A DNA stretch of 64,000 nucleotides from a virus. Below the pieces are notes generated by a model that searched no databases, was not told where the DNA came from, and was given only the letters and a program-made list of their open reading frames with translations. The stretch is taken from IMG/VR virus record IMGVR_UViG_3300027782_000035. One strand, given 5' to 3'. Shown here in pieces: positions 33,182 to 62,676 of this stretch. Every line of letters starts with the position of its first letter. Within the stretch, counting starts at the first letter, position 1. The position numbers were made by a program, and so were the translations under genes.

Positions 33182-33631
33182 TTAAAACGAGTATTTCAAA
33201 CCAACTGCAATTTGATTACCATCAAATGCATTTACACTTTTCTGACCTTCTTGACGGCGCCAATCAATCGTTGCGGCCAAATTCTTGGCAACAGGAACAG
33301 AACCACCGACACCAGCAGTAACGGCATAACCATCAGCACCAGTTTGATTCATCAAATATGCAACGCCACCTTTTACTGCAACAGTAACAGGTCCGACTTT
33401 CGTAACATCATATGAACCAACTAAACTATAACGGTCTTGGTCATTTGTCCCTTGAACGAAACGAGTGTAACCGGCTTCAACACCAATAGCACCAAATTTT
33501 TCACCTAAAGTAATACCATAACCTGTGCGGTCGGCACTACCAGAATAATCACGGGTACCGTTTACACCAACTTCTACTGCTGATGCTGATAATGCCAAAG
33601 TGGCCAATGTTGCAAATAAAACTTTTTTCAA
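33182..33631 (-). CDS. outer-membrane beta-barrel protein (8-stranded, OmpA-TM/Lom-like)
   Basis: Signal peptide, amphipathic strands, C-terminal VGLKYSF beta-signal. Confidence 0.85.
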   Translation of the reverse strand: MKKVLFATLATLALSASAVEVGVNGTRDYSGSADRTGYGITLGEKFGAIGVEAGYTRFVQGTNDQDRYSLVGSYDVTKVGPVTVAVKGGVAYLMNQTGADGYAVTAGVGGSVPVAKNLAATIDWRRQEGQKSVNAFDGNQIAVGLKYSF

Positions 33632-33654
33632 AATAAACTCCTTGTTGTTAATAG

Positions 33655-33990
33655 TGGTTAGTTATTCTGTTACGAGGAAACTAACCGAAACCCTAAGCTG
33701 CGTTTAAGCTGCTAATGCGAACTGTGAGTCGTTTGCGTTTACTTTTTTTGCTTGATTAACGGTCATCGCCTACCGTGTTGCCGTCGCCACTATCTAGCCC
33801 TGTCGAAACTATGCAGGCCCATCAGAAAGACACTTATGTTTAGTTAACCCTTTATCCCTTACCCACTCAAATCTAATAAAACAGGTTGGGCATAATGCAG
33901 TATATCTATGTTTCATAATTATCTTTTTGGTGGACCTGGGGGGATTCGCACCCCCGTCCAGAACTCCTTCGCTTTGAAGGGATTACAACA
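33655..33990 (-). ncRNA. ssrA: circularly permuted (two-piece) tmRNA
   Basis: Segment ..GGACGGGGGTGCGAATCCCCCCAGGTCCACCA (ends 33928) lies upstream of the segment starting GGGCCTG (33820); G3:U70 pair; tag GCAAACGACTCACAGTTCGCATTAGCAGCTTAA = ANDSQFALAA; outer ends approximate. Confidence 0.9.
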
Positions 33991-33992
33991 AT

Positions 33993-34559
33993 TCAATAAC
34001 TGACTGATAACCTATCAGTCAGTGTAAACTCTCTGTCTCTTACAAATGCAGTCAAAATATATTTTGACCCTGCGATCACACTTTCACCTTGATGAATCAT
34101 TGGTTCTTGTGTGTTGTATTTATAAACAACACAACTGCCACGCCGGGGTTTGATTCTCAAATTGTTTTTGGCAAAAACTGTGCAACCACCTTCAAAATCA
34201 TCATTGAGATACATGATCATTGTGGCTGTTCTTTGCGACGCAAAGCCCGACGTCAAGTCTGTGTGCCAATTGAAATAGTCTCCAACATCATATCTAATGA
34301 GAGGCATGGGTTCAATTTGCTGGATATTTTTAATATTAAAAAAATCTGCCACTCGCTTGGTCAACAAGTCAAAGTACTCATCATTGCCATATTCAATTCT
34401 GTGAGTTTTGCATTTTCTAATGTCATGGTATTCCAACTGACCGTTACGATGAACTTGACCATTTTTCCAATCGTAGTGCTTGGAAAAAATCTTGACAAGA
34501 TCTTGATCACTCAGCCAATTGTCATACTGCACAATTGAAGAACCATGGTGTGTTATCAT
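33993..34559 (-). CDS. 2OG-Fe(II) oxygenase (prolyl-hydroxylase-like)
   Basis: RY..FNWHTD..RTATMIMYLNDDFEGG..HQG..GSKY. Confidence 0.9.
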   Translation of the reverse strand: MITHHGSSIVQYDNWLSDQDLVKIFSKHYDWKNGQVHRNGQLEYHDIRKCKTHRIEYGNDEYFDLLTKRVADFFNIKNIQQIEPMPLIRYDVGDYFNWHTDLTSGFASQRTATMIMYLNDDFEGGCTVFAKNNLRIKPRRGSCVVYKYNTQEPMIHQGESVIAGSKYILTAFVRDREFTLTDRLSVSY

Positions 34560-54783: not shown

Positions 54784-56211
54784 TTAGATATCGTAACGTT
54801 CTACCATCAATGCTTTTAACATGATAGCTTCTGGAGTAAACTCTTCAGTGTTACCCGAAAGTACTGCATTCAAGATTGAAGGTGAGAATCCAGAAATTAG
54901 TGCAGTTCCACTCTTATCGAATTTTACTGGCACATTGCCTTTTGCGTTCAAGTTCCAGAATACAACCTTTGGAAGGTCGTACCCTGCTGCTTGGTACTTA
55001 TGTTCAATCATCTGCATTGCAGAGTGATCAAATTTAGCACAAGCATCGAACTGCATGTCGGACATAATCAGAAGCATCTCTGGCATTTCTTCTTGAGGAA
55101 CGCCACCTTTAACTGCAGTGCTAAGGATTTTATCGAAAGCTTTATGCAAGTTGGTATTCATTGCCCAGTCAGACTTAATCATTTGTTGAGCCTTCTGAAC
55201 TACGTTACCCTTTAGGTTCAATAGTTGTGGATTGGCCGAGAATGTCAAGAACGTATCCTTGAACACACCTTTGTTCTTGTCGGCAACATACAATCCCAAA
55301 GAGACTGCAACGTCTAAACAGGAAATAGCTGAACCAGAACCAAAGCCACCAACTGGACATGTCATAGATCCAGACACATCAACTAATGCAAGAATGTTTG
55401 CATCCCCAACATAGTTAGGTAGTGCTTCCCATTGCTTAACGACTACGTCTAGTTCATCCTTGGTGAATGAAACAGAACTAAAGCGATTGGTTACACCTTT
55501 CAATACGTCGTATGGATACACGGCACCGGCATTAACCTTAACTGTTGGATCAGTTCCCTTCACCAAAGCTTTTACGTATTCGCCATACTTTGGAGTGTTA
55601 CGTCCAAAAGCTTTCTTATAACGAGCATGAGCTACTGAAGGTACGTGTGAGAAGTTAATGTCATCCCATTCTTTAGCGCACATCTGAGATTCCACAACCT
55701 TAGTCAATTCAACCAAGGACTTACGATAGAACTTTGGAGACATACCAAAGAATGTGCGGATCTCTGCTGCTAGAGGTCCTTGACGAGGAGTCCACTTAGC
55801 GGCCAAACCATTACGTTGGCGCAGTGCTTCGCCCAACATAGTAAAAGCTTGGGCTTTCAATTCTTTGTTTTTAAAGACAAAGATATCGTCCCAACGTCCT
55901 AGTTCTGGAACCTTTGGTAGCAGCTTAGCTGCAAGGTCAGGACGATGAGTGTCAAGGTAACCTAGAATGTCGCGGAAGATCTTACGTTCTCCAGCTCCTC
56001 CGCGCACATCACGAACCCATTGAGTGATACGCAACGCTATATCTTCATTCTCAACAAGAGCTGCGACGAATTCTTTCGTCACATCTTTACCCCGTGATGC
56101 TCCTATTCCAAAGAATAGGTCTACACACTTATTAGCTGTAGACTTACGAGCTTTCATACCATTTTCAGTACGAGCTTCTTGATTCTTAACTGCTTCTACG
56201 AATGTTGACAT
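54784..56211 (-). CDS. TROVE/DUF2828 vWA-domain protein (Ro60-related)
   Basis: TENG, RDVRGGAGER, GRWDD, AAKW.PR, MIDAS DVSGSM, SDMQFD, VFWNL, SGFS. Confidence 0.85.
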   Translation of the reverse strand: MSTFVEAVKNQEARTENGMKARKSTANKCVDLFFGIGASRGKDVTKEFVAALVENEDIALRITQWVRDVRGGAGERKIFRDILGYLDTHRPDLAAKLLPKVPELGRWDDIFVFKNKELKAQAFTMLGEALRQRNGLAAKWTPRQGPLAAEIRTFFGMSPKFYRKSLVELTKVVESQMCAKEWDDINFSHVPSVAHARYKKAFGRNTPKYGEYVKALVKGTDPTVKVNAGAVYPYDVLKGVTNRFSSVSFTKDELDVVVKQWEALPNYVGDANILALVDVSGSMTCPVGGFGSGSAISCLDVAVSLGLYVADKNKGVFKDTFLTFSANPQLLNLKGNVVQKAQQMIKSDWAMNTNLHKAFDKILSTAVKGGVPQEEMPEMLLIMSDMQFDACAKFDHSAMQMIEHKYQAAGYDLPKVVFWNLNAKGNVPVKFDKSGTALISGFSPSILNAVLSGNTEEFTPEAIMLKALMVERYDI

Positions 56212-56713: not shown

Positions 56714-56788
56714 TGGTACCTTGTGACGGTTTCGAACCGCCGACATCCCACTTGTAAGGAGGGCGCTCTACCACTGAGCTAACAAGGC
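56714..56788 (-). tRNA. tRNA-Val(TAC)
   Basis: Cloverleaf, CT-TAC-AA, CCA. Confidence 0.9.
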
Positions 56789-56795
56789 ATAATCT

Positions 56796-56871
56796 TGGGC
56801 AGACGTTACGGACTTGAACCGTTCCTACGAGTTTCACAGACTCGTGTGCTAACCACTACACTAAACGCTGC
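56796..56871 (-). tRNA. tRNA-His(GTG), irregular acceptor stem
   Basis: CT-GTG-AA, G-1:C73, bulged acceptor. Confidence 0.8.
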
Positions 56872-56876
56872 ATATA

Positions 56877-57004
56877 CCATATAGAAACACACTGTGGTGC
56901 TTGAATCCGTGATAGCCCCTCTCTTCCTGGCCGGTCCTTGCACTGTCTAGAATTGGCAAGTATTTCGGTGTTCCAGTGTAGCTACTCAATGTGTTTTTAT
57001 ATGG
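56877..57004 (-). ncRNA. tRNA-appended long-stem element A
   Basis: CCATATAAAAACACATTG...CAGTGTGTTTCTATATGG. Confidence 0.55.
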
Positions 57005-57076
57005 TAGAGGTACAGGGAATCGAACCCTGATTAATAGGTTAAAAGCCTACTACTTTAGCCGTTAAGTTATACCTCC
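57002..57076 (-). tRNA. tRNA-Lys(TTT)
   Basis: CT-TTT-AA, CCA. Confidence 0.9.
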
Positions 57077-57226
57077 ATTGGTATTTGTTTTTGTGCTTTA
57101 CGTAATGCCTTATTAGACTTACGATGAACACCTGCTTTACGGAAAAGTGCAAGTCGAACGAAGCAGTTACGTTCGCGCACGATTGTCTTTCGTTTACTCA
57201 TCTTCATTCTCCTTGTTAATAATTAG

Positions 57227-57300
57227 TGGAGCGGGGTAGGAGAATCGAACTCCTCGCTTTAGCTTGGAAGGCTAGGGTATTACCACTATACGAACCCCGC
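57227..57300 (-). tRNA. tRNA-Gly(TCC)
   Basis: CT-TCC-AA, U73, CCA. Confidence 0.92.
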
Positions 57301-57301
57301 A

Positions 57302-57577
57302 TTATACTTTAATTGTACTCCATTGACGAAGTTTTTCTCGTTTTGCTTCACGAGCTTTTTCTATCCAAAGAGCACCAATGATATCGTGCTCAATAAGTAA
57401 GTCGATCATACACAGAAGATCACCAACTTCTTCCTCAAGATGTTCGCGGTTAGTAACGCTGTTATATTCAGCATCTATACCAAACCTAAACACCTTGCTG
57501 ATAGCTTGGATAACTTCAGCGCATTCCTCTTGAGCGATCAAGAGAATTTCTTTTCCATTGTCATTTGTGTTTTTCAT
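57302..57577 (-). CDS. MazG-like NTP pyrophosphohydrolase
   Basis: EECAEVIQAISK..EEEVGDL; promoter at 57584-57612. Confidence 0.8.
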   Translation of the reverse strand: MKNTNDNGKEILLIAQEECAEVIQAISKVFRFGIDAEYNSVTNREHLEEEVGDLLCMIDLLIEHDIIGALWIEKAREAKREKLRQWSTIKV

Positions 57578-57620
57578 ATTGTAATTATACCACAAACACG
57601 AATTAATGTACACCGTTATT

Positions 57621-57696
57621 TGGAGCGGGCGATCGGGTTCGAACCGACGACATTTACCTTGGCAAGGTAATGCTCTACCAACTGAGCTACGCCCGC
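57621..57696 (-). tRNA. tRNA-Gly(GCC)
   Basis: TT-GCC-AA, CCA. Confidence 0.95.
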
Positions 57697-57697
57697 A

Positions 57698-57904
57698 TTA
57701 ATTGTCTACTACTGTGTACGTAGGGCTAACTATTACATACTTAGCACGCTGCACATTCACTTCAATGATAGGAACACTATTAGCTTCATTCGTTGCTTTA
57801 ACAAAAGCACGTGCTTCATGTTCAGTGTCAAAATATATGGTACCATCTACATTCATAGATGTTTCATCTTCACGCGTAATCAATACAACTTTATATGGTT
57901 TCAT
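57698..57904 (-). CDS. hypothetical protein
   Basis: 68-aa ORF filling the gap between tRNAs. Confidence 0.55.
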   Translation of the reverse strand: MKPYKVVLITREDETSMNVDGTIYFDTEHEARAFVKATNEANSVPIIEVNVQRAKYVIVSPTYTVVDN

Positions 57905-57917
57905 AATGTTTCTTATT

Positions 57918-57991
57918 TGGCATCCCTCCAGAGACTCGAACTCCGACTAATGGTTTTGGAGACCATCGTGCTGCCATTACACCAGAGAGAC
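57918..57991 (-). tRNA. tRNA-Trp(CCA)
   Basis: CT-CCA-AA. Confidence 0.9.
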
Positions 57992-57994
57992 ATT

Positions 57995-58077
57995 TGGTAC
58001 CCGAAGCCGGACTCGAACCGGCACGCACTAGGCGGGAGATTTTAAGTCTCCTGTGTCTACCATTCCACCATTCGGGC
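57995..58077 (-). tRNA. tRNA-Leu(TAA)
   Basis: CT-TAA-AA, variable arm. Confidence 0.92.
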
Positions 58078-58356
58078 TTATTTCTTAACTAACGGATTCT
58101 CGGAATCTAGCGCATCTTCATTCTTAAATACAACCTTGGCGCTACCAACAGTGCCAGGCATATCTAAAATACAATCTTCAGTAGATAACACATCTTGATA
58201 TTCATTCTTAGCTGTGCCTGTATTATCTTCATCAAGATTATCACGCCTAAAGATAGCGTCCCAACGAGTATTATACTCTTCTTGACTTACGCTAAATGGA
58301 CGTGGATTTGATCCTTTACCTCCGGGATTTCCCGTCATATCAAATGTTGCTGTCAT
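58078..58356 (-). CDS. hypothetical protein
   Basis: GGKGS.PRPFSVS..WDAIF motif; AGGAG SD. Confidence 0.65.
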   Translation of the reverse strand: MTATFDMTGNPGGKGSNPRPFSVSQEEYNTRWDAIFRRDNLDEDNTGTAKNEYQDVLSTEDCILDMPGTVGSAKVVFKNEDALDSENPLVKK

Positions 58357-58364
58357 ATGAACTC

Positions 58365-58487
58365 CTATCTACCTTGTCCTCGATATCTTTTTGTGCGTTT
58401 ACGCGTTTTGTTAAGAGTACTAGTCTTACTTCCGTTTTGACAAGTTTTCTTAACAATTTTTCTACGTGAACTCGTGCCTTTACTCAT
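58365..58487 (-). CDS. small basic protein ending RYRGQGR
   Basis: Manual ORF MSKGTSSRRKIVKKTCQNGSKTSTLNKTRKRTKRYRGQGR; AAGGAG SD. Confidence 0.65.
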   Translation of the reverse strand: MSKGTSSRRKIVKKTCQNGSKTSTLNKTRKRTKRYRGQGR

Positions 58488-58499
58488 AATTATCTCCTT

Positions 58500-58574
58500 T
58501 GGTGCTGATGGCGGGACTCGAACCCACGACCTCTTCCTTACCAAGGAAGTACACTACCACTGTGTTACATCAGC
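58500..58574 (-). tRNA. tRNA-Thr(GGT)
   Basis: TT-GGT-AA. Confidence 0.92.
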
Positions 58575-58585
58575 AAATTATAAAA

Positions 58586-58662
58586 TGGTCGGAGTACAAG
58601 GATTCGAACCTTGGACCCCCTGGTCCCAAACCAGGTGCGCTACCAGACTGCGCTACACTCCG
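58586..58662 (-). tRNA. tRNA-Pro(TGG)
   Basis: TT-TGG-GA. Confidence 0.95.
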
Positions 58663-58674
58663 TAAAACTATATA

Positions 58675-58750
58675 TGGTAGTTGAGGTGGGACTCGAACCC
58701 ACGATAGTCACCGTATGAAGGTGGTGCATTAGCCACTATGCTACTCAACC
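58675..58750 (-). tRNA. tRNA-Met(CAT), probably elongator
   Basis: TT-CAT-AC. Confidence 0.85.
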
Positions 58751-58759
58751 ATATAAACT

Positions 58760-58834
58760 TGGTGCCGGATGTCTGGTTCGAACAGACGACCTATCGCTTA
58801 CAAGGCGATTGCACTACCACTGTGCTAATCCGGC
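58760..58834 (-). tRNA. tRNA-Thr(TGT)
   Basis: CT-TGT-AA. Confidence 0.9.
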
Positions 58835-58840
58835 GAAAAC

Positions 58841-58917
58841 TGGTAGCGGAGGAGGGATTCGAACCCCCGATTCTTGGCTTATGAGACCAAGCGGATAGAC
58901 CACTTCCATACTCCGCG
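58841..58917 (-). tRNA. tRNA-fMet-like (CAT)
   Basis: CT-CAT-AA; C1:T72 mismatch. Confidence 0.85.
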
Positions 58918-58923
58918 ATATAT

Positions 58924-58999
58924 TGGTGGAGGTGACAGGACTCGAACCCGCTACCTACTGCTTGCAAAGCAGCCGCTCTCCCAGCTGAGCTACACCCCC
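58924..58999 (-). tRNA. tRNA-Ala(TGC)
   Basis: TT-TGC-AA; G3:U70. Confidence 0.95.
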
Positions 59000-59007
59000 A
59001 AAAAACT

Positions 59008-59082
59008 TGGCGCGTCCTGAAGGAATCGAACCTCCATCCCAAAGTTCGTAGCCTTGTATATTATCCATTATACGAAGGACGC
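59008..59082 (-). tRNA. tRNA-Arg(ACG)
   Basis: CT-ACG-AA. Confidence 0.9.
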
Positions 59083-59089
59083 ATTATTC

Positions 59090-59144
59090 AACAGAATCGT
59101 TTTGCTTTTTTTCATAAAAAGTTTTTTATTGCTGAACCGATTCT
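59090..59144 (-). ncRNA. candidate CAGCA-motif RNA 4
   Basis: Stem AGAATCG/CGATTCT, GTTCAGCAA, 3' GTT; compensatory change relative to RNA 2. Confidence 0.55.
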
Positions 59145-59149
59145 AAAAC

Positions 59150-59225
59150 TGGCTCCCCAGCGTGGGATCGAACCACGGACACCTTGATTAACAGTCAAGT
59201 GCAACTACCGCTGTGCTACTGGGGA
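59150..59225 (-). tRNA. tRNA-Asn(GTT)
   Basis: CT-GTT-AA. Confidence 0.92.
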
Positions 59226-59379
59226 ATAAATATTTTTATGATAGACGTCAACACCGCAATTGCTCGCTTGTACAAATTTTCACAAAGAAAATACGTACAG
59301 CGTGCGTCTTACACTAACTCTAAAGAATTCAAACTTGATGAACTTCTAAGTAAACCTAAGCCTGAATTCAAACCAATCG

Positions 59380-59467
59380 TGGTGGGTGTTGATGGTAACG
59401 CTCCACGAACCTGACTTCCCATCTCTTTAGGTAACGGTTTTACAGACCGCCGACGGGGGCAACACCC
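59380..59467 (-). tRNA. atypical D-armless tRNA-Tyr(GTA)-like
   Basis: GGGTGTTG/CAACACCC-ACCA acceptor; GCGGT-CTGTAAA-ACCGT arm; no D stem; non-canonical T loop. Confidence 0.65.
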
Positions 59468-59473
59468 TAAACT

Positions 59474-59547
59474 TGGTCCCCTCGTATGGAATCGGACCAT
59501 CTTCTCTCGGTTATCAGCCGAGTGCTCTACCATTGAGCTACAAGGGG
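59474..59547 (-). tRNA. tRNA-Ile(GAT)
   Basis: CT-GAT-AA. Confidence 0.88.
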
Positions 59548-59553
59548 AAATAT

Positions 59554-59629
59554 TGGTAGGAACGATTGGACTCGAACCAACCACACGCAAATTTTCAGTC
59601 TGCTGCTCTACCTGATGAGCTACGTTCCC
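59554..59629 (-). tRNA. tRNA-Phe(GAA)
   Basis: CT-GAA-AA. Confidence 0.9.
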
Positions 59630-59635
59630 ATTATA

Positions 59636-59727
59636 TGGCGGAAAGCAGAGGAGTCGAACCCCATCCCATTTCTGAGAACCCAGTTTTCAAGGCTGGTCGC
59701 CGGACCATCCCAGCTGCATTACTTTCC
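59636..59727 (-). tRNA. tRNA-Ser(TGA)
   Basis: CT-TGA-AA, variable arm, G73. Confidence 0.85.
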
Positions 59728-59734
59728 ATAAACT

Positions 59735-59811
59735 TGGTACCCCAGAGGAGACTCGAACTCCTAAAATTTGGTTTCTAAGACCAACACGTATACCAATTCC
59801 GTCACCGGGGC
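59735..59811 (-). tRNA. tRNA-Leu(TAG), no long variable arm
   Basis: CT-TAG-AA, 77 nt. Confidence 0.85.
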
Positions 59812-59816
59812 AATAA

Positions 59817-59964
59817 TTATTGTTAAGTGTTATCCGCCGATTTGTCAAAAATGTAGCTAGCACTGACAAGCGAATAGCAGTTATATCAGGACCTGTTCCT
59901 CGCACAGTTAGGCCCGCATAGTGTAAGCGTCCTTACACGATACCTTGATAACACTTAACAATAA
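59817..59964 (-). ncRNA. structured element closed by an 18-bp perfect stem
   Basis: TTATTGTTAAGTGTTATC...GATAACACTTAACAATAA between tRNA-Asp and tRNA-Leu. Confidence 0.55.
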
Positions 59965-59968
59965 ACTA

Positions 59969-60043
59969 TGGCGGTGCCAAGGGGTAACGATCCCCTTCTT
60001 CGAGCGTGACAGGCTCGTGTGCGTCCATGAACACTTTGGCACC
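59969..60043 (-). tRNA. tRNA-Asp(GTC)
   Basis: CT-GTC-AC, G73. Confidence 0.88.
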
Positions 60044-60047
60044 AAAT

Positions 60048-60238
60048 TAGGATAAGCTACTGGGTTCCACGCCAGCCCTTAATTGAGCAGTTACTCTGTC
60101 CATCCCTTTTATTCTGATGTCTGTGTGCAGAGGGAACTGCCTATCAGAGCCTGAGGGGTTACCTCGCTAACGGTTTTCTGCCACCGGATCTCTGTCGCTA
60201 ATCAAACGCTATTTTAACGAAAATAGTAACGGGATTCT
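60048..60238 (-). ncRNA. manA-like structured RNA (tentative)
   Basis: About 190 nt non-coding, multi-hairpin, inside the tRNA cluster; resemblance to the manA motif is from memory and unverified. Confidence 0.45.
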
Positions 60239-60239
60239 A

Positions 60240-60408
60240 CCATAAAGAAACACACTGGCAAATCCCTTCCTGAGACTATTGCGTTTGCTCCGCTCACTCT
60301 TGTTTTCTCGGATTCCTTGGGCTTGAGATTAAACTCAGGAAAGCATAGGGTTCCAGCCTATGGCTAACATCCGCCCTCACCGGTACTGGGCAATGTGTTT
60401 CTTTATGG
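60240..60408 (-). ncRNA. tRNA-appended long-stem element B
   Basis: CCATAAAGAAACACATTG...CAGTGTGTTTCTTTATGG. Confidence 0.55.
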
Positions 60409-60480
60409 TACACGGTACGGGAATCGAACCCGTCTTACATACGTGAAAGGCATGTGTCCTAACCGATAGACGAACCGTGC
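60406..60480 (-). tRNA. tRNA-Glu(TTC)
   Basis: CT-TTC-AC. Confidence 0.92.
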
Positions 60481-60481
60481 A

Positions 60482-60672
60482 TGGTGGTGGTTTTTAGAGA
60501 ACCACCAAACTCAATGGCTGACCTTTGGTCATTTAATGTTTCCTGCTCGGCGTTTTGACGTGCATCCTTTTCAGGCTGACCTTCAAGGTCCATTTAATGC
60601 GTCCTGCGTTGCGTTTTGAAACAACCTTTACGTGCCTCATGCTCCGTATTTACCGTAGACTTAGAGAGGACT
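60482..60672 (-). ncRNA. tandem-motif RNA ending in a hairpin plus ACCA
   Basis: Two copies of CAAAACGC-N3-GCAGGA-N2-CATTAAATG-ACC..GGTCAGCC; 3' GGTGGTT-CTCTAAA-AACCACC-ACCA. Confidence 0.45.
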
Positions 60673-60676
60673 TTTA

Positions 60677-60746
60677 GAATTTTTAAAGAACGTTTGCTTT
60701 ATCAGCAGTAGATAGAGATTATACACCATCTACGATTTATTGTACA
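60677..60746 (-). promoter_or_regulatory. early promoter plus boxA-like element
   Basis: TGTACA-N17-TATAAT (60718-60746); AACGTTCTTTAAAAATTC (60677-60694). Confidence 0.75.
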
Positions 60747-60755
60747 CCGTTATTT

Positions 60756-60947
60756 TTAAACTCTTTCAACGGTTCCTAAAACACCGCGCGTACCGCGCGT
60801 GTATTTAGACACAGTCTGAGCCCATACAGTGTACCTAGATTTGTCAATGGGAAAAGTCTCTTGACCTTTCTTTGGTCCACGATAAGCGCACTGAGTAAAC
60901 TTAACGCCATCAATAACGATTACAGTGTCTTTAGATTTCCTAGCCAT
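60756..60947 (-). CDS. small basic hypothetical protein
   Basis: AAAGGA SD; between two promoter cassettes. Confidence 0.6.
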   Translation of the reverse strand: MARKSKDTVIVIDGVKFTQCAYRGPKKGQETFPIDKSRYTVWAQTVSKYTRGTRGVLGTVERV

Positions 60948-60977
60948 TTAAGTTCCTTTGTTTGACTTGATATAGCT

Positions 60978-61040
60978 ATTCTATCAAATTGACGATTTAT
61001 TGTACACCGTTATTTCAATAGTTGACTAAAACAGTCAACT
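60978..61040 (-). promoter_or_regulatory. early promoter plus palindrome cassette
   Basis: TGTACA-N17-TAGAAT; agttgact-aaaac-agtcaact. Confidence 0.8.
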
Positions 61041-61189
61041 TAAACCTTTAGTATTCAAAATGCATCAGGTGATCTTGAAAGGCATCGAGCTAGGGTAATC
61101 CCTATCGAGCCATCAAACGTTCATTCTGGTGCATTCTGTACACATAAGTTGTTGATTTATAAGGGCTAAAAATAGCCTTTTTATCACTT

Positions 61190-61267
61190 TGGAGCAACGG
61201 GTGAGATTCGAACTCACGGTTTTACGGATTTGCAATCCATTGCGTTGGGCCTCTCCGCCACCGTTGC
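61190..61267 (-). tRNA. tRNA-Cys(GCA)
   Basis: TT-GCA-AA, U73. Confidence 0.9.
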
Positions 61268-61268
61268 A

Positions 61269-61826
61269 TTAATTCCATACACGAGAATGTTTTGGCACTC
61301 CTGACTTTAGGTACTCCATCTGATCAGCCAGAATGTGTCGATTCTGAAGGATCATGTTTTCGTAATGATTAGGTGCGTATGGAACATATAGAAGTTCAAG
61401 CCCGCACTGATGAAGTAACTTGGCTCCTTTATGAGTGTTACACTTTACGCATGCAGTCACTACGTTAGACCATACGTTTTCACCACCTTTTGAAACTGGA
61501 ACAATGTGATCCCGTGATAGGTTGTTATTGGTAAAGAGCCCACCACAGTAAGCACATATATGCTTGTCGCGCGAGAATAAAGTTTTATTTGTTAGGATAA
61601 CACTGCCAGCACGTTCGATTGCAAATCCTTTACCACGTACAGCAATGATCGATGGAGTTTCTATAACGGACATACGGCCATCATTCTGAGTTCCTCCACG
61701 GAACGTTGCTACTACGTCACCAAGAGTCCACACTACCATATCCTTAGCGAAGTATGATACTGCGTCTTCATAGTTAATCCACTTGCGTGGTAGTCCAGAT
61801 ACGTCTAATGCTAATACATGTGACAT
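61269..61826 (-). CDS. HNH endonuclease
   Basis: RDKHICAYCG..DHIVP.S.GG..W.NVVTAC..CN..KG. Confidence 0.92.
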   Translation of the reverse strand: MSHVLALDVSGLPRKWINYEDAVSYFAKDMVVWTLGDVVATFRGGTQNDGRMSVIETPSIIAVRGKGFAIERAGSVILTNKTLFSRDKHICAYCGGLFTNNNLSRDHIVPVSKGGENVWSNVVTACVKCNTHKGAKLLHQCGLELLYVPYAPNHYENMILQNRHILADQMEYLKSGVPKHSRVWN

Positions 61827-61863
61827 GATTACTCCTTACAACTTTCTTCCTTAATTATATAGG

Positions 61864-61939
<76 letters not shown>

Positions 61940-61947
61940 ATTAAAAC

Positions 61948-62039
61948 TGGTACCAGCGGAGGGGATCGAACCCTCTCAAGAACGCTAATCTGGCGCTAAA
62001 AGGCTTATAAGACCTCTCTGACTTCCAAGTCTCGCTGGC
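61948..62039 (-). tRNA. atypical tRNA-Ile(TAT) with long variable arm
   Basis: GAGGT-CTTATAA-GCCTT; short D arm GACT-TGGA-AGTC; canonical T arm; ACCA. Confidence 0.7.
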
Positions 62040-62044
62040 ATATT

Positions 62045-62134
62045 TGGCGGAGTGACTGGGACTCGAACCCAGAAGCCTGCTTTCGCAAACCGACGGATTA
62101 GCAATCCGCTCTAATACCATTATAGGACCACTCC
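62045..62134 (-). tRNA. tRNA-Ser(GCT)
   Basis: TT-GCT-AA, variable arm. Confidence 0.9.
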
Positions 62135-62141
62135 AAAATCT

Positions 62142-62219
62142 TGGTCTGGGTAGCAGGATTCGAACCTGCAGCCTCGAAGTTCCAAACCTCGCCGTCTACC
62201 TGATTGACAATATACCCAG
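62142..62219 (-). tRNA. tRNA-Pro(TGG), second copy
   Basis: TT-TGG-AA (A37 instead of G37). Confidence 0.8.
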
Positions 62220-62225
62220 ATGAAA

Positions 62226-62307
62226 CCATATCGAAACACACTTCGGATACTGTACTAAACAGGAACTATCCACCACGGCCATGGCGCTGAAATGCATTTC
62301 AATATGG
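62226..62307 (-). ncRNA. tRNA-appended long-stem element C
   Basis: CCATATTGAAATGCATTT...AAGTGTGTTTCGATATGG. Confidence 0.55.
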
Positions 62308-62378
62308 CACCGGAACTAGGGTTCGAACCTAGGACGACAGAGTCAAAGTCTGTTGTGTTACCACTACACTATTCCGGA
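62305..62378 (-). tRNA. tRNA-Gln(TTG)
   Basis: CT-TTG-AC. Confidence 0.9.
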
Positions 62379-62395
62379 TCAATTATAAAGAATAC

Positions 62396-62470
62396 GAATT
62401 TTTAAAGAACGTTGTCAATCTTTTTGATTGACTGTAGATGTATTATACACCATCTACGATTTATTGTACA
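62396..62470 (-). promoter_or_regulatory. early promoter plus hairpin plus boxA-like element heading the tRNA array
   Basis: Promoter 62442-62470 identical to 60718-60746; GTCAATC-AAAAA-GATTGAC hairpin; AACGTTCTTTAAAAATTC. Confidence 0.75.
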
Positions 62471-62475
62471 CCACT

Positions 62476-62512
62476 AAACAAAAAAGGCCCTAGTTTTTTT
62501 ACTAGGGCCTTT
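62476..62512 (-). terminator. intrinsic terminator (attenuator)
   Basis: AGGCCCTAGT-A6-ACTAGGGCCT followed by TTTTTGTTT. Confidence 0.9.
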
Positions 62513-62540
62513 GGTTAGATTAACTTGCTTCTATCTTACC

Positions 62541-62639
62541 TTAGACCCTTACGCTCCATTCTGGAGAAAATGTGCGTGCAATCGCCTGATCATTTAGACC
62601 ATTAAATTTTACGCTATAAGATATGTAACAGAGATGCAT
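62541..62639 (-). CDS. putative attenuator leader peptide (32 aa, all 20 amino acids)
   Basis: MHLCYISYSVKFNGLNDQAIARTFSPEWSVRV*; AGGT SD; stop codon overlaps the antiterminator arm. Confidence 0.7.
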   Translation of the reverse strand: MHLCYISYSVKFNGLNDQAIARTFSPEWSVRV

Positions 62640-62668
62640 GATTACCTATTAAGTTAGGGTGTTTAATT

Positions 62669-62676
62669 TATTTATA
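62669..62676 (-). promoter_or_regulatory. late promoter TATAAATA upstream of the leader peptide
   Basis: tatttata on + strand, about 30 nt before the leader ATG. Confidence 0.7.

What the first reader, a model, noticed from the sequence alone, without database searches (positions are those of the whole stretch)
62476..62676. Pan-tRNA-sensing attenuator: a 32-codon leader containing all 20 amino acids gates the phage tRNA array
Seen (- strand), in order: late promoter TATAAATA (62669-62676); AGGT SD; ORF 62639-62541, MHLCYISYSVKFNGLNDQAIARTFSPEWSVRV*; intrinsic terminator (62476-62512); tRNA array. The peptide has every amino acid, whereas about 4 would be missing on average even under uniform usage (20 x 0.95^32 = 3.9). 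It also samples separate isoacceptor boxes (ATA/ATT, TCT/AGC, CGC/AGG, CTC/CTA, GTA/GTC). The last codons and stop form the 5' arm of an alternative hairpin, AGGGUCU-aa-GGU-a-AGAU...AUCU-a-ACC-aa-AGGCCCU, which captures the terminator's 5' arm. Established: this is trp/his/pheST attenuation logic, but those leaders are enriched for one or a few amino acids. Inference: a ribosome reaching the stop allows termination, while stalling at any codon (tRNA cleaved by host defence or uncharged) frees the antiterminator and switches on the full phage tRNA set late in infection. The internal early promoter would give ungated early expression.
Basis: partly seen in the sequence, partly recalled or inferred. 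Interest (0 to 1): 0.95.

Follow-up and report, generated by a model that had tools for sequence, protein, structure and literature searches.

The report
Twenty-amino-acid leader attenuator before phage tRNAs
An uncultured T4-like phage places its 26-gene tRNA array behind a tiny translated test gene that uses each of the 20 amino acids and is wired to a switchable transcription stop; relatives keep this completeness, so the phage probably makes more tRNA whenever any amino acid is decoded slowly.

Summary
On the minus strand lie a T4-type late promoter, a Shine-Dalgarno site, a 32-codon ORF with all 20 amino acids, an intrinsic terminator, an early promoter and a 26-tRNA array.

I found 18 distinct homologous cassettes (16 distinct peptides, 31-35 aa) from over 20 environmental samples. 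Fifteen peptides keep all 20 amino acids, although sequences fall to 34% identity and residues change places. In 776 kb of related DNA, no other ORF of 27-40 codons (about 1,480) is complete. A phylogeny-aware null gives about 1e-5 to 1e-6.

The ORF evolves as coding sequence (pN/pS about 0.3). Its last bases and stop codon form the 5' arm of an antiterminator that covaries with the terminator and is the lowest-energy fold of the nascent RNA in all 17 cassettes tested. The cassette always precedes tRNA-Gln and a long array, while the upstream gene varies.

Best reading, at about 0.65: a ribosome-mediated attenuator auditing all aminoacyl-tRNAs. There is no expression or experimental evidence.

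Cultured vibriophages KVP40 and nt-1 carry an analogous cassette with 18-19 amino acids. This scan has noted leader attenuators before tRNA blocks on other phage DNA. I found no published account.

The parts
62669..62676 (-). T4-type late promoter octamer TATAAATA; overlaps the stop codon of the upstream 78-codon ORF
   Evidence: It is the only exact copy on this strand between 36395 and the window end, so none lies inside the array. It is conserved in all 18 cassettes, including the 8 found by routes that did not require it. The window is T4-like: baseplate gp5/6/7/8-type proteins and gp32. Use as a promoter is inferred.
62644..62647 (-). Shine-Dalgarno-like AGGT, 4 nt before the ATG
   Evidence: Every lineage has an SD-like purine motif 5-8 nt before its ATG, although the 5' UTRs differ in sequence and length.
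62541..62639 (-). Leader ORF: 32 codons plus UAA, all 20 amino acids, 11 of them single. All 20 are already present in the first 28 codons, ending at Trp.
   Evidence: pN/pS is 0.1-0.5; the two other frames carry 0-4 stops.
62587..62601 (-). Mid-ORF hairpin (5 bp, 5-nt loop; codons 13-18)
   Evidence: It is kept by compensatory changes in lineages found without using it as a search pattern (window, L095/L098, L005, L100). These changes swap Gly and Asp codons, so RNA structure shapes the peptide here. A role as a pause hairpin is only a guess.
62554..62566 (-). Second ORF hairpin (5 bp, GAA loop) over the Pro-Glu-Trp codons
   Evidence: A hairpin at this place is predicted in most lineages. 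It does not overlap the antiterminator arm.
62504..62549 (-). Antiterminator. The outer 7-bp helix pairs 62549-62543 (last codons plus the U of the stop) with 62510-62504 (terminator 5' arm). Inside it are an AA/AA internal loop and an inner hairpin at 62540-62513.
   Evidence: it is the MFE of the nascent RNA in all 17 cassettes. RNAalifold on a plain MAFFT alignment recovers it; 93.8% of cells are paired versus 87.7 +/- 1.4 in shuffles (0/500), covariation score is 0.370 versus 0.237 (0/500), and slid partners pair at 57-64%; cognate versus permuted arms, P = 5.5e-4.
62476..62512 (-). Intrinsic terminator: 12-bp stem, 6-nt loop, U-tract
   Evidence: It is present, with different stem sequences, in all 17 cassettes with enough downstream DNA.
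62442..62470 (-). Sigma70-like early promoter (TGTACA, 17 nt, TATAAT) downstream of the terminator. With the stem-loop it makes a PeSL-like composite.
   Evidence: An identical promoter is repeated at 60746-60718. PeSL description: PMC4122927.
62398..62432 (-). Hairpin (62432-62414) plus a boxA-like run (62411-62398) between the early promoter and the first tRNA
Evidence: The run is conserved in relatives, including the cassette-less L084.
56714..62378 (-). Regulated output: array of 26 tRNA genes for 19 amino acids (no Tyr found), starting with tRNA-Gln, with an HNH endonuclease ORF and small ORFs interspersed
   Evidence: Every homologous cassette with downstream DNA is followed by tRNA-Gln and a long array.

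Best explanation
This is a ribosome-mediated (leader-peptide) transcription attenuator whose leader holds one or a few codons for each of the 20 amino acids, all placed before the last four codons.

Proposed mechanism:
- Transcripts start at the late promoter or arrive from the upstream operon, and their leader is translated.
- If every codon is decoded promptly, the ribosome reaches the UAA. There it covers the last codons and about 12 nt beyond, which is the whole 5' strand of the antiterminator. The terminator then folds and the transcript ends before the array.
- If the ribosome is held at any earlier codon, or never loads, the antiterminator forms first and sequesters the terminator's 5' arm. 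RNA polymerase then reads into the 26-tRNA array.
- The early promoter downstream of the terminator supplies ungated early expression.

Shown here: the elements themselves, conservation of completeness, a coding signature, mutually exclusive and covarying helices, and linkage to the array. Inferred: use of the promoter, translation in vivo, the direction of the switch, and that tRNA or amino-acid shortage is the natural signal.
For: 1. Completeness is conserved while sequence is not. 15 of 16 distinct peptides (31-35 aa, down to 34% identity, from over 20 samples) have all 20 amino acids. 14 of 16 are complete by the Trp codon. Single-copy residues (Cys, His, Pro, Thr, Tyr, Gly, Asp) sit at different positions in different lineages.
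2. Null models. Redrawing only the changed positions along a minimum spanning tree gives eight at-risk steps, seven of which stayed complete; the joint probability is 1e-5 to 1e-6 under three backgrounds. None of about 1,480 other ORFs of 27-40 codons in 776 kb is complete.
3. The ORF is translated by evolutionary signature. pN/pS is 0.1-0.5, pooled 0.28. The frame stays open in all 18 DNAs while the other frames carry stops. An SD motif is kept in diverged UTRs.
4. The switch. The antiterminator is the nascent-RNA MFE in 17 of 17 cassettes. In 15 of 17 its 5' arm spans -6 to 0 relative to the stop codon's first base, and in L100 it lies over the stop codon. Its 3' partners are the same bases that pair in the terminator. 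Both-side changes occur at -6, -5 and -2.
5. Linkage. Downstream is always tRNA-Gln plus an array. The upstream neighbour belongs to at least six unrelated families.
6. No other exact late-promoter octamer feeds the array.
7. An analogous cassette with 18-19 amino acids heads the tRNA block of KVP40-like vibriophages.
Against:
- L007 has lost Phe and Pro, yet keeps the ORF and both helices.
- L084/L006 has no cassette at all, so it is dispensable.
- Most amino acids appear once. The abstract of PMC1183508 ties attenuator sensitivity to translation of the regulatory codons; from general knowledge, classical leaders use runs of such codons, so this design should respond only to severe shortage.
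- There is no conserved anti-antiterminator: the UTR pairing seen in the window's full-length fold is absent in L095 and L005. An untranslated leader would therefore read through.
- The terminator plus early promoter resembles PeSL borders that are generic in T4-like genomes (PMC4122927).
- The window has no tRNA-Tyr gene, and TCT codons have no cognate phage tRNA here, so the leader does not simply mirror the phage's own set.
- The vibriophage leaders lack Gly or Cys although their arrays carry those tRNAs.
Confidence: 0.65

Rival explanations
1. It is a translation-coupled attenuator that senses general ribosome traffic (ribosome supply, antibiotics, host shut-off, RNA polymerase-ribosome coupling) rather than individual aminoacyl-tRNAs. 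The 20-amino-acid content would have no sensing role.
For: The switch geometry needs only a ribosome at the stop codon. Leaders that respond to any ribosome stalling are known, for example bmrB-bmrCD (PMC4191407). Single codons give weak amino-acid specificity. The vibriophage versions tolerate one or two missing amino acids.
Against: This does not explain why completeness is kept through about 60% sequence turnover, with residues relocating. It also does not explain why none of about 1,480 control ORFs is complete, or why the regulated genes are tRNAs.
Confidence: 0.15
2. It is an ordinary small late gene whose 31-35 aa peptide has its own function, closed by a PeSL-type stem-loop plus early promoter that marks a module border. 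The amino-acid completeness is a side effect of purifying selection on the peptide.
For: pN/pS below 1 and a well conserved C-terminal half in several lineages. PeSL composites are common in T4-like phages (PMC4122927), and a second stem-loop plus identical promoter lies inside the array.
Against: Purifying selection on positions cannot explain completeness in lineages where those positions changed. Amino-acid swaps follow RNA-hairpin covariation. The ORF end copies the terminator's 3' arm in every lineage. The cassette moves with the array, not with upstream genes.
Confidence: 0.1
3. It is a non-coding structured RNA (a late small RNA or a processing signal for the tRNA precursor) and the ORF is incidental.
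For: Nucleotide conservation is higher than in the flanking protein genes. There are several conserved hairpins, and the full-length fold has z = -3.8.
Against: The frame is open in 18 of 18 cassettes, with SD and ATG kept despite indels and UTR turnover. Synonymous changes are in excess, with all four bases at one Ala third position. No Rfam family matches.
Confidence: 0.04

Closest known systems
Leader-peptide attenuators of enterobacterial amino-acid operons (trpL, hisL, thrL, ilvL, pheL) and of pheST (pheM)
   Same: Short translated leader, intrinsic terminator, and a mutually exclusive antiterminator whose formation depends on where the ribosome sits. The output is tied to the supply of charged tRNA. 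pheM already controls a gene of the translation apparatus (general knowledge; PMC1183508 and PMC3082878 seen).
   Different: Those leaders carry runs of codons for one to three amino acids and have a third (anti-antiterminator or pause) pairing. Here every amino acid is present, mostly once, no such third pairing is conserved, the stop codon lies inside the antiterminator arm, the output is tRNA genes, and the element is viral and sits under a late promoter.
Stalling-sensing leaders of resistance genes (bmrB-bmrCD of Bacillus subtilis, PMC4191407)
   Same: Ribosome-mediated transcription attenuation that responds to slowed translation in general, not to one amino acid.
   Different: Those respond to antibiotics, with no requirement on leader composition. 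Here composition (completeness) is the conserved feature.
PeSL composite motifs of T4-like phages (PMC4122927)
   Same: A stem-loop immediately followed by a sigma70-like early promoter, repeated in variable regions. The terminator plus promoter at 62512-62442 and the pair at 60799-60718 fit this layout.
   Different: PeSLs are followed by the SD and start codon of a protein gene and have no upstream ORF whose end pairs with the stem. They do not account for the antiterminator or the leader.
Leader attenuators before tRNA blocks of jumbo phages, noted earlier in this scan (unpublished AI notes e1-5381190, e1-5656129, e1-3450868 and others)
   Same: A tiny ORF plus a terminator/antiterminator in front of phage tRNA genes.
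   Different: Those leaders are described as spelled only in the amino acids of the block that follows, with several cassettes per genome. Here a single cassette with all 20 amino acids heads one near-complete array in a T4-like phage, and the match to the array is 19 of 20 in the window. I did not re-examine those genomes.
Cassette at the head of the tRNA block of KVP40-like vibriophages (found here; nt-1 record 97984-97770)
   Same: Late-promoter-like site, SD, 37-38-codon ORF with Trp four codons before the stop, stop codon overlapping a short antiterminator arm, inner hairpin, terminator, then the tRNA array.
   Different: It has 18-19 amino acids rather than 20. The terminator and arm are invariant, so there is no covariation evidence. 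Homology to the window's leader is uncertain: tblastn with two leader peptides found no significant match in the phage collection.

Membership tests
Ribosome-mediated (leader-peptide) transcription attenuator | Short ORF with ribosome-binding site in the 5' leader of the regulated genes | tested here: met
   SD plus ATG plus 31-35 codons in 18 cassettes; coding substitution pattern.
Ribosome-mediated (leader-peptide) transcription attenuator | Intrinsic terminator between leader ORF and regulated genes | tested here: met
   A GC-rich stem plus U-tract lies 14-28 nt after the stop in all 17 cassettes with enough DNA.
Ribosome-mediated (leader-peptide) transcription attenuator | Antiterminator that excludes the terminator and is masked or freed by ribosome position | tested here: met
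   Nascent-RNA MFE in 17 of 17; the arm overlaps the stop codon; it shares bases with the terminator's 5' arm; covariation and controls. The ribosome footprint argument is inference.
Ribosome-mediated (leader-peptide) transcription attenuator | Run or enrichment of codons for the cognate amino acid(s) | tested here: not met
   No amino acid is enriched; 8-12 amino acids occur once in each peptide. This is the feature that makes it a variant.
Ribosome-mediated (leader-peptide) transcription attenuator | Anti-antiterminator or pause hairpin giving termination without translation | tested here: inconclusive
   Two conserved hairpins lie inside the ORF, but neither overlaps the antiterminator arm. 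The UTR pairing in the window is not conserved.
Ribosome-mediated (leader-peptide) transcription attenuator | Read-through shown to depend on leader translation and charged tRNA | not testable with these tools
   Needs reporter, Term-seq or Ribo-seq experiments.
T-box or other curated RNA family | Match to an Rfam covariance model | tested here: not met
   Only tRNA reaches threshold. All other matches are far below gathering scores.
PeSL (promoter-early stem-loop) motif of T4-like phages | Stem-loop directly upstream of a sigma70-like early promoter, repeated in the genome | tested here: met
   62512-62442, and a second stem-loop plus identical promoter at 60799-60718; definition from PMC4122927.
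PeSL (promoter-early stem-loop) motif of T4-like phages | Followed by the SD and start codon of a protein gene | tested here: not met
   It is followed by a hairpin, a boxA-like run and tRNA-Gln.

The most novel reading that the evidence does not exclude
T4-like phages with near-complete tRNA sets run a 20-input check on decoding. A leader holds one codon for each amino acid, and a delay at any of them switches late transcription through a terminator into the whole tRNA array. This would be a homeostatic or counter-defence circuit that tops up tRNAs when the host pool is degraded or cleaved. A near-complete version is present in the cultured phages KVP40 and nt-1.
Probability: 0.55. Interest if true: 0.92.

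Novelty: new variant of a known kind. Interest (0 to 1): 0.88.

Why it matters
Why phages carry tRNA arrays, and how they are regulated, remains under debate. Recent papers tie phage tRNAs to host tRNA loss and to tRNA-cleaving defences (PMC10264068, PMC11555353, PMC11464382; titles seen). None that I found describes how array expression is controlled.

A leader that audits all 20 amino acids would be a new input logic for a textbook mechanism: an all-must-pass gate instead of a sensor for one amino acid. It would also be the first attenuator known to control tRNA genes.

The selected trait is composition, not sequence. That is unusual for a coding region and gives a clean signature for finding more such elements.

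The analogous cassette in nt-1, whose host is the fast-growing Vibrio natriegens, makes the idea directly testable.

Tried and rejected
- DNA searches (near and distant) of the leader region against 50,697 phage records found nothing. tblastn with two leader peptides gave only chance hits at E of 3 or more.
- No whole genome is held for the window.
- The search for homologous proteins refuses queries under 40 aa.
- The one metagenome scan used a pattern that turned out too narrow and missed L098- and L100-type leaders. These were later recovered by a peptide profile search and a third IMG/VR pattern. Three IMG/VR hits of the second pattern were AT-rich chance matches without tRNAs.
- Seven of the nine profile hits were long unrelated proteins.
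- Rejected: a second sigma70 promoter at 62418. The TTGACA lies 25 nt from the TATAAT and is part of a hairpin.
- Rejected: the 5' UTR to ORF-end pairing of the window's full-length fold as a conserved anti-antiterminator.
- Rejected: an exact 'leader spells the array' rule. Tyr codons occur without a tRNA-Tyr gene in the window, and Gly or Cys tRNAs occur without matching leader codons in the vibriophages.
- Not used as independent evidence: mid-ORF hairpin covariation in the 11 loci found with the third pattern, because that pattern partly enforces the pairing.

Full report
WHAT IS THERE

Read on the minus strand, the region holds these elements in order:
- the end of an ATP-dependent DNA ligase gene (63963-62908) and a 78-codon ORF (62908-62672);
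- the octamer TATAAATA (62676-62669), overlapping that ORF's stop;
- AGGT four bases before an ATG;
- a 32-codon ORF (62639-62541);
- a 12-bp GC-rich stem with a U-tract (62512 to about 62476);
- a sigma70-like promoter (62470-62442);
- a hairpin and a boxA-like run;
- tRNA-Gln (62378) and 25 further tRNAs down to 56714.

The window is from a T4-like phage. It encodes gp5/6/7/8-type baseplate proteins and gp32, and its ligase is about 41% identical to those of Vibrio and Synechococcus myoviruses. No close isolate exists. The exact late-promoter octamer occurs only six times in 64 kb and nowhere inside the array on this strand.

THE OBSERVATION

The peptide has all 20 amino acids, 11 of them once. 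The chance for a 32-codon ORF is 3.3e-3 with uniform usage and about 7e-4 with the window's base composition. It is the only complete ORF among 555 ORFs of 20-40 codons in the window. On its own this would be a post-hoc curiosity.

HOMOLOGUES

Four independent routes found homologous cassettes:
- loci next to ligase relatives;
- one metagenome pattern scan;
- a profile search of the leader peptides against 1.84 billion proteins, which found two gene calls;
- a late-promoter plus mid-ORF motif scan of IMG/VR.

Together they give 18 distinct leader DNAs and 16 distinct peptides of 31-35 residues, from over 20 samples. None of the search criteria required completeness.

Fifteen of the 16 peptides contain all 20 amino acids. 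The exception, L007, lacks Phe and Pro. Identity to the window's peptide falls to 50% (L095) and 34% (L005). In 14 of 16 the set is already complete at the Trp codon, which lies two to five codons before the stop. Single-copy residues occupy different positions in different lineages. For example, Cys is at position 4 or 21, Pro, Thr and Ser permute around a fixed Phe, and Tyr is at position 8 or 14.

STATISTICS

I linked the peptides by a minimum spanning tree rooted at the window. For each step I redrew only the positions that differ, under three background compositions. Eight steps put completeness at risk, and seven stayed complete. Their individual probabilities ranged from 0.02 to 0.72, and the joint probability of the observed pattern is 1e-5 to 1e-6.

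There are 1,496 distinct ATG ORFs of 27-40 codons. Sixteen are complete, and all sixteen are leaders.

IS THE ORF TRANSLATED?

- The frame is open in all 18 DNAs despite indels, while the other two frames carry stops: 0-3 in one and 1-4 in the other.
- Each lineage keeps an SD-like motif 5-8 nt before its ATG, although the UTRs differ.
- Substitutions are biased to synonymous sites: pN/pS is 0.1-0.5, pooled 0.28. One Ala codon shows all four third bases.
- A 5-bp hairpin in the middle of the ORF is maintained by compensatory changes that exchange Gly and Asp codons. RNA structure therefore constrains the sequence there, and the exact peptide does not.

THE SWITCH

The full-length RNA folds with the terminator formed.

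In 15 of 17 cassettes the outer helix runs from six or five bases before the stop codon to its first base. In L100 the arm lies over and after the stop codon and makes 13 pairs. The 3' partners are exactly the bases that pair in the terminator. The ORF end thus copies the terminator's 3' arm, and it changes when the terminator changes. Pairs changed on both sides occur at -6 (A-U to C-G), -5 (G-C to A-U) and -2 (U-G to G-C).

Three further checks agree:
- RNAalifold on an unfitted MAFFT alignment recovers the helix, and 3 of 8 pairs show both-side changes.
- Pair counting gives 93.8% paired cells against 87.7 +/- 1.4 in shuffles, and a covariation score of 0.370 against 0.237. No shuffle out of 500 reaches either value, and slid partners drop to 57-64%.
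- Cognate arm pairs beat permuted pairs, with P = 5.5e-4.

The stop codon is UAA in all 17 cassettes whose stop region was printed. It lies 14-28 nt before the terminator hairpin as called, which in some lineages includes extra flanking pairs, and 28 nt in the window. By the usual footprint of about 12-15 nt downstream of the A site (general knowledge), a terminating ribosome would cover the antiterminator's 5' strand but not the terminator.

LINKAGE

Every cassette with downstream DNA is followed by tRNA-Gln and a long array of up to 26 genes. The gene immediately upstream belongs to at least six unrelated families: the 78-codon family, the ligase itself, and four others. The cassette therefore belongs to the array. 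One relative, L084/L006, goes straight from the 78-codon gene to a boxA-like run and tRNA-Ser, without the cassette, so the cassette is dispensable.

MECHANISM

A ribosome that reaches the stop in step with RNA polymerase melts the antiterminator, and the transcript ends. A ribosome delayed at any earlier codon, or absent, leaves the antiterminator in place, and transcription enters the array. The early promoter after the terminator gives ungated early expression. Late in infection the only exact late promoter feeding the array is the leader's.

That the sensed quantity is each charged tRNA is inferred from the conserved completeness. It is also suggested by the universal presence of both Ser codon boxes and of both ATA and ATY for Ile before the Trp codon.

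Caveats:
- There are no expression data.
- Single codons imply low sensitivity to mild starvation.
- There is no conserved anti-antiterminator.
- L007 is incomplete.
- No tRNA-Tyr gene was found in the window.
- The stem-loop plus early promoter has the layout of PeSL borders that are generic in T4-like phages (PMC4122927). That accounts for this part, but not for the leader or the antiterminator.

BEYOND THE FAMILY

The main tRNA block of Vibrio phage nt-1 is preceded by the same architecture:
- a late-promoter octamer and an SD;
- a 37-codon ORF with 19 amino acids and Trp four codons before the stop;
- a stop codon whose last base starts a 4-bp arm pairing with the terminator's 5' arm;
- an inner hairpin and a terminator;
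- 27 tRNAs for all 20 amino acids.

The region is conserved in 50 KVP40-like records. Seven representatives have 18-19 amino acids, lacking Gly and/or Cys. In the control set, 57 of about 1,480 ORFs (about 4%) reach 18 or more distinct amino acids and 10 (about 0.7%) reach 19. This shows that the layout is widespread in T4-like phages with big arrays, and that strict completeness is a property of the freshwater clade. It also provides a cultivable test system.

COMPARISON AND NOVELTY

The mechanism class, leader-peptide attenuation, is textbook. It meets the structural criteria of that class but not the defining codon enrichment (see the membership table). New features are the all-amino-acid input, tRNA genes as output, and the phage late-promoter setting.

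Six full-text searches found no description of an attenuator in front of phage tRNA genes. Subscription-only literature is not covered.

Earlier AI notes of this scan report leader attenuators before tRNA blocks in jumbo phages on other DNA. This case agrees with them and adds the pan-amino-acid form with a quantitative conservation test. I did not re-check those notes.

Noticed in passing
L114:370-585 (Vibrio phage nt-1, record about 97770-97984, minus strand); L115-L120: Cultured KVP40-like vibriophages have an analogous promoter / 37-38-codon ORF (18-19 amino acids) / stop-overlapping antiterminator / terminator cassette at the head of their main tRNA block. KVP40's annotation places an ORF on the opposite strand there, and some records annotate the leader as a hypothetical protein.
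   Followed up: partly
window 62398-62432, and again after the promoter at 60746-60718: After each copy of the early promoter come a short hairpin and a conserved run resembling rrn boxA. The run is kept in relatives, including the cassette-less L084.
   Followed up: partly
L084:4190-4441 (= L006): A natural variant in which the 78-codon gene is followed directly by the boxA-like run and tRNA-Ser. The leader, terminator, early promoter and tRNA-Gln are all missing.
   Followed up: partly
window 34117-34124 (minus strand), upstream of 33613-34020: An exact late-promoter octamer lies about 97 nt upstream of a phage-encoded tmRNA gene, so another part of the translation-rescue machinery may be late-expressed.
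   Followed up: no
window 54787-56211 (minus strand): A 475-aa protein directly after the array matches PHROG 850, 'RNA-binding protein' (E = 3e-139). A homologously annotated gene lies near the array in Vibrio phage D482.
   Followed up: no
window 56714-62378; L110:1417-1509: Neither ARAGORN nor Rfam finds a tRNA-Tyr in the window's array, and tRNA-Ser(UGA) is also absent. Related arrays carry Tyr (L110) or Ser(UGA) (L097, L004). Array content varies between relatives while the leader stays complete.
   Followed up: partly
L098:2599-2736 (also L099, L107): An in-frame ATG overlapping the ligase stop codon extends the leader to 45 codons, which is how the gene caller reported it. On transcripts coming from the ligase operon, the leader could be translationally coupled to the ligase.
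   Followed up: no
window 61269-61826 (minus strand): A 185-aa ORF sits inside the tRNA array. Its counterparts in L098 and L100 carry HNH endonuclease domains, so it is probably a homing endonuclease, as in the nt-1 array.
   Followed up: no
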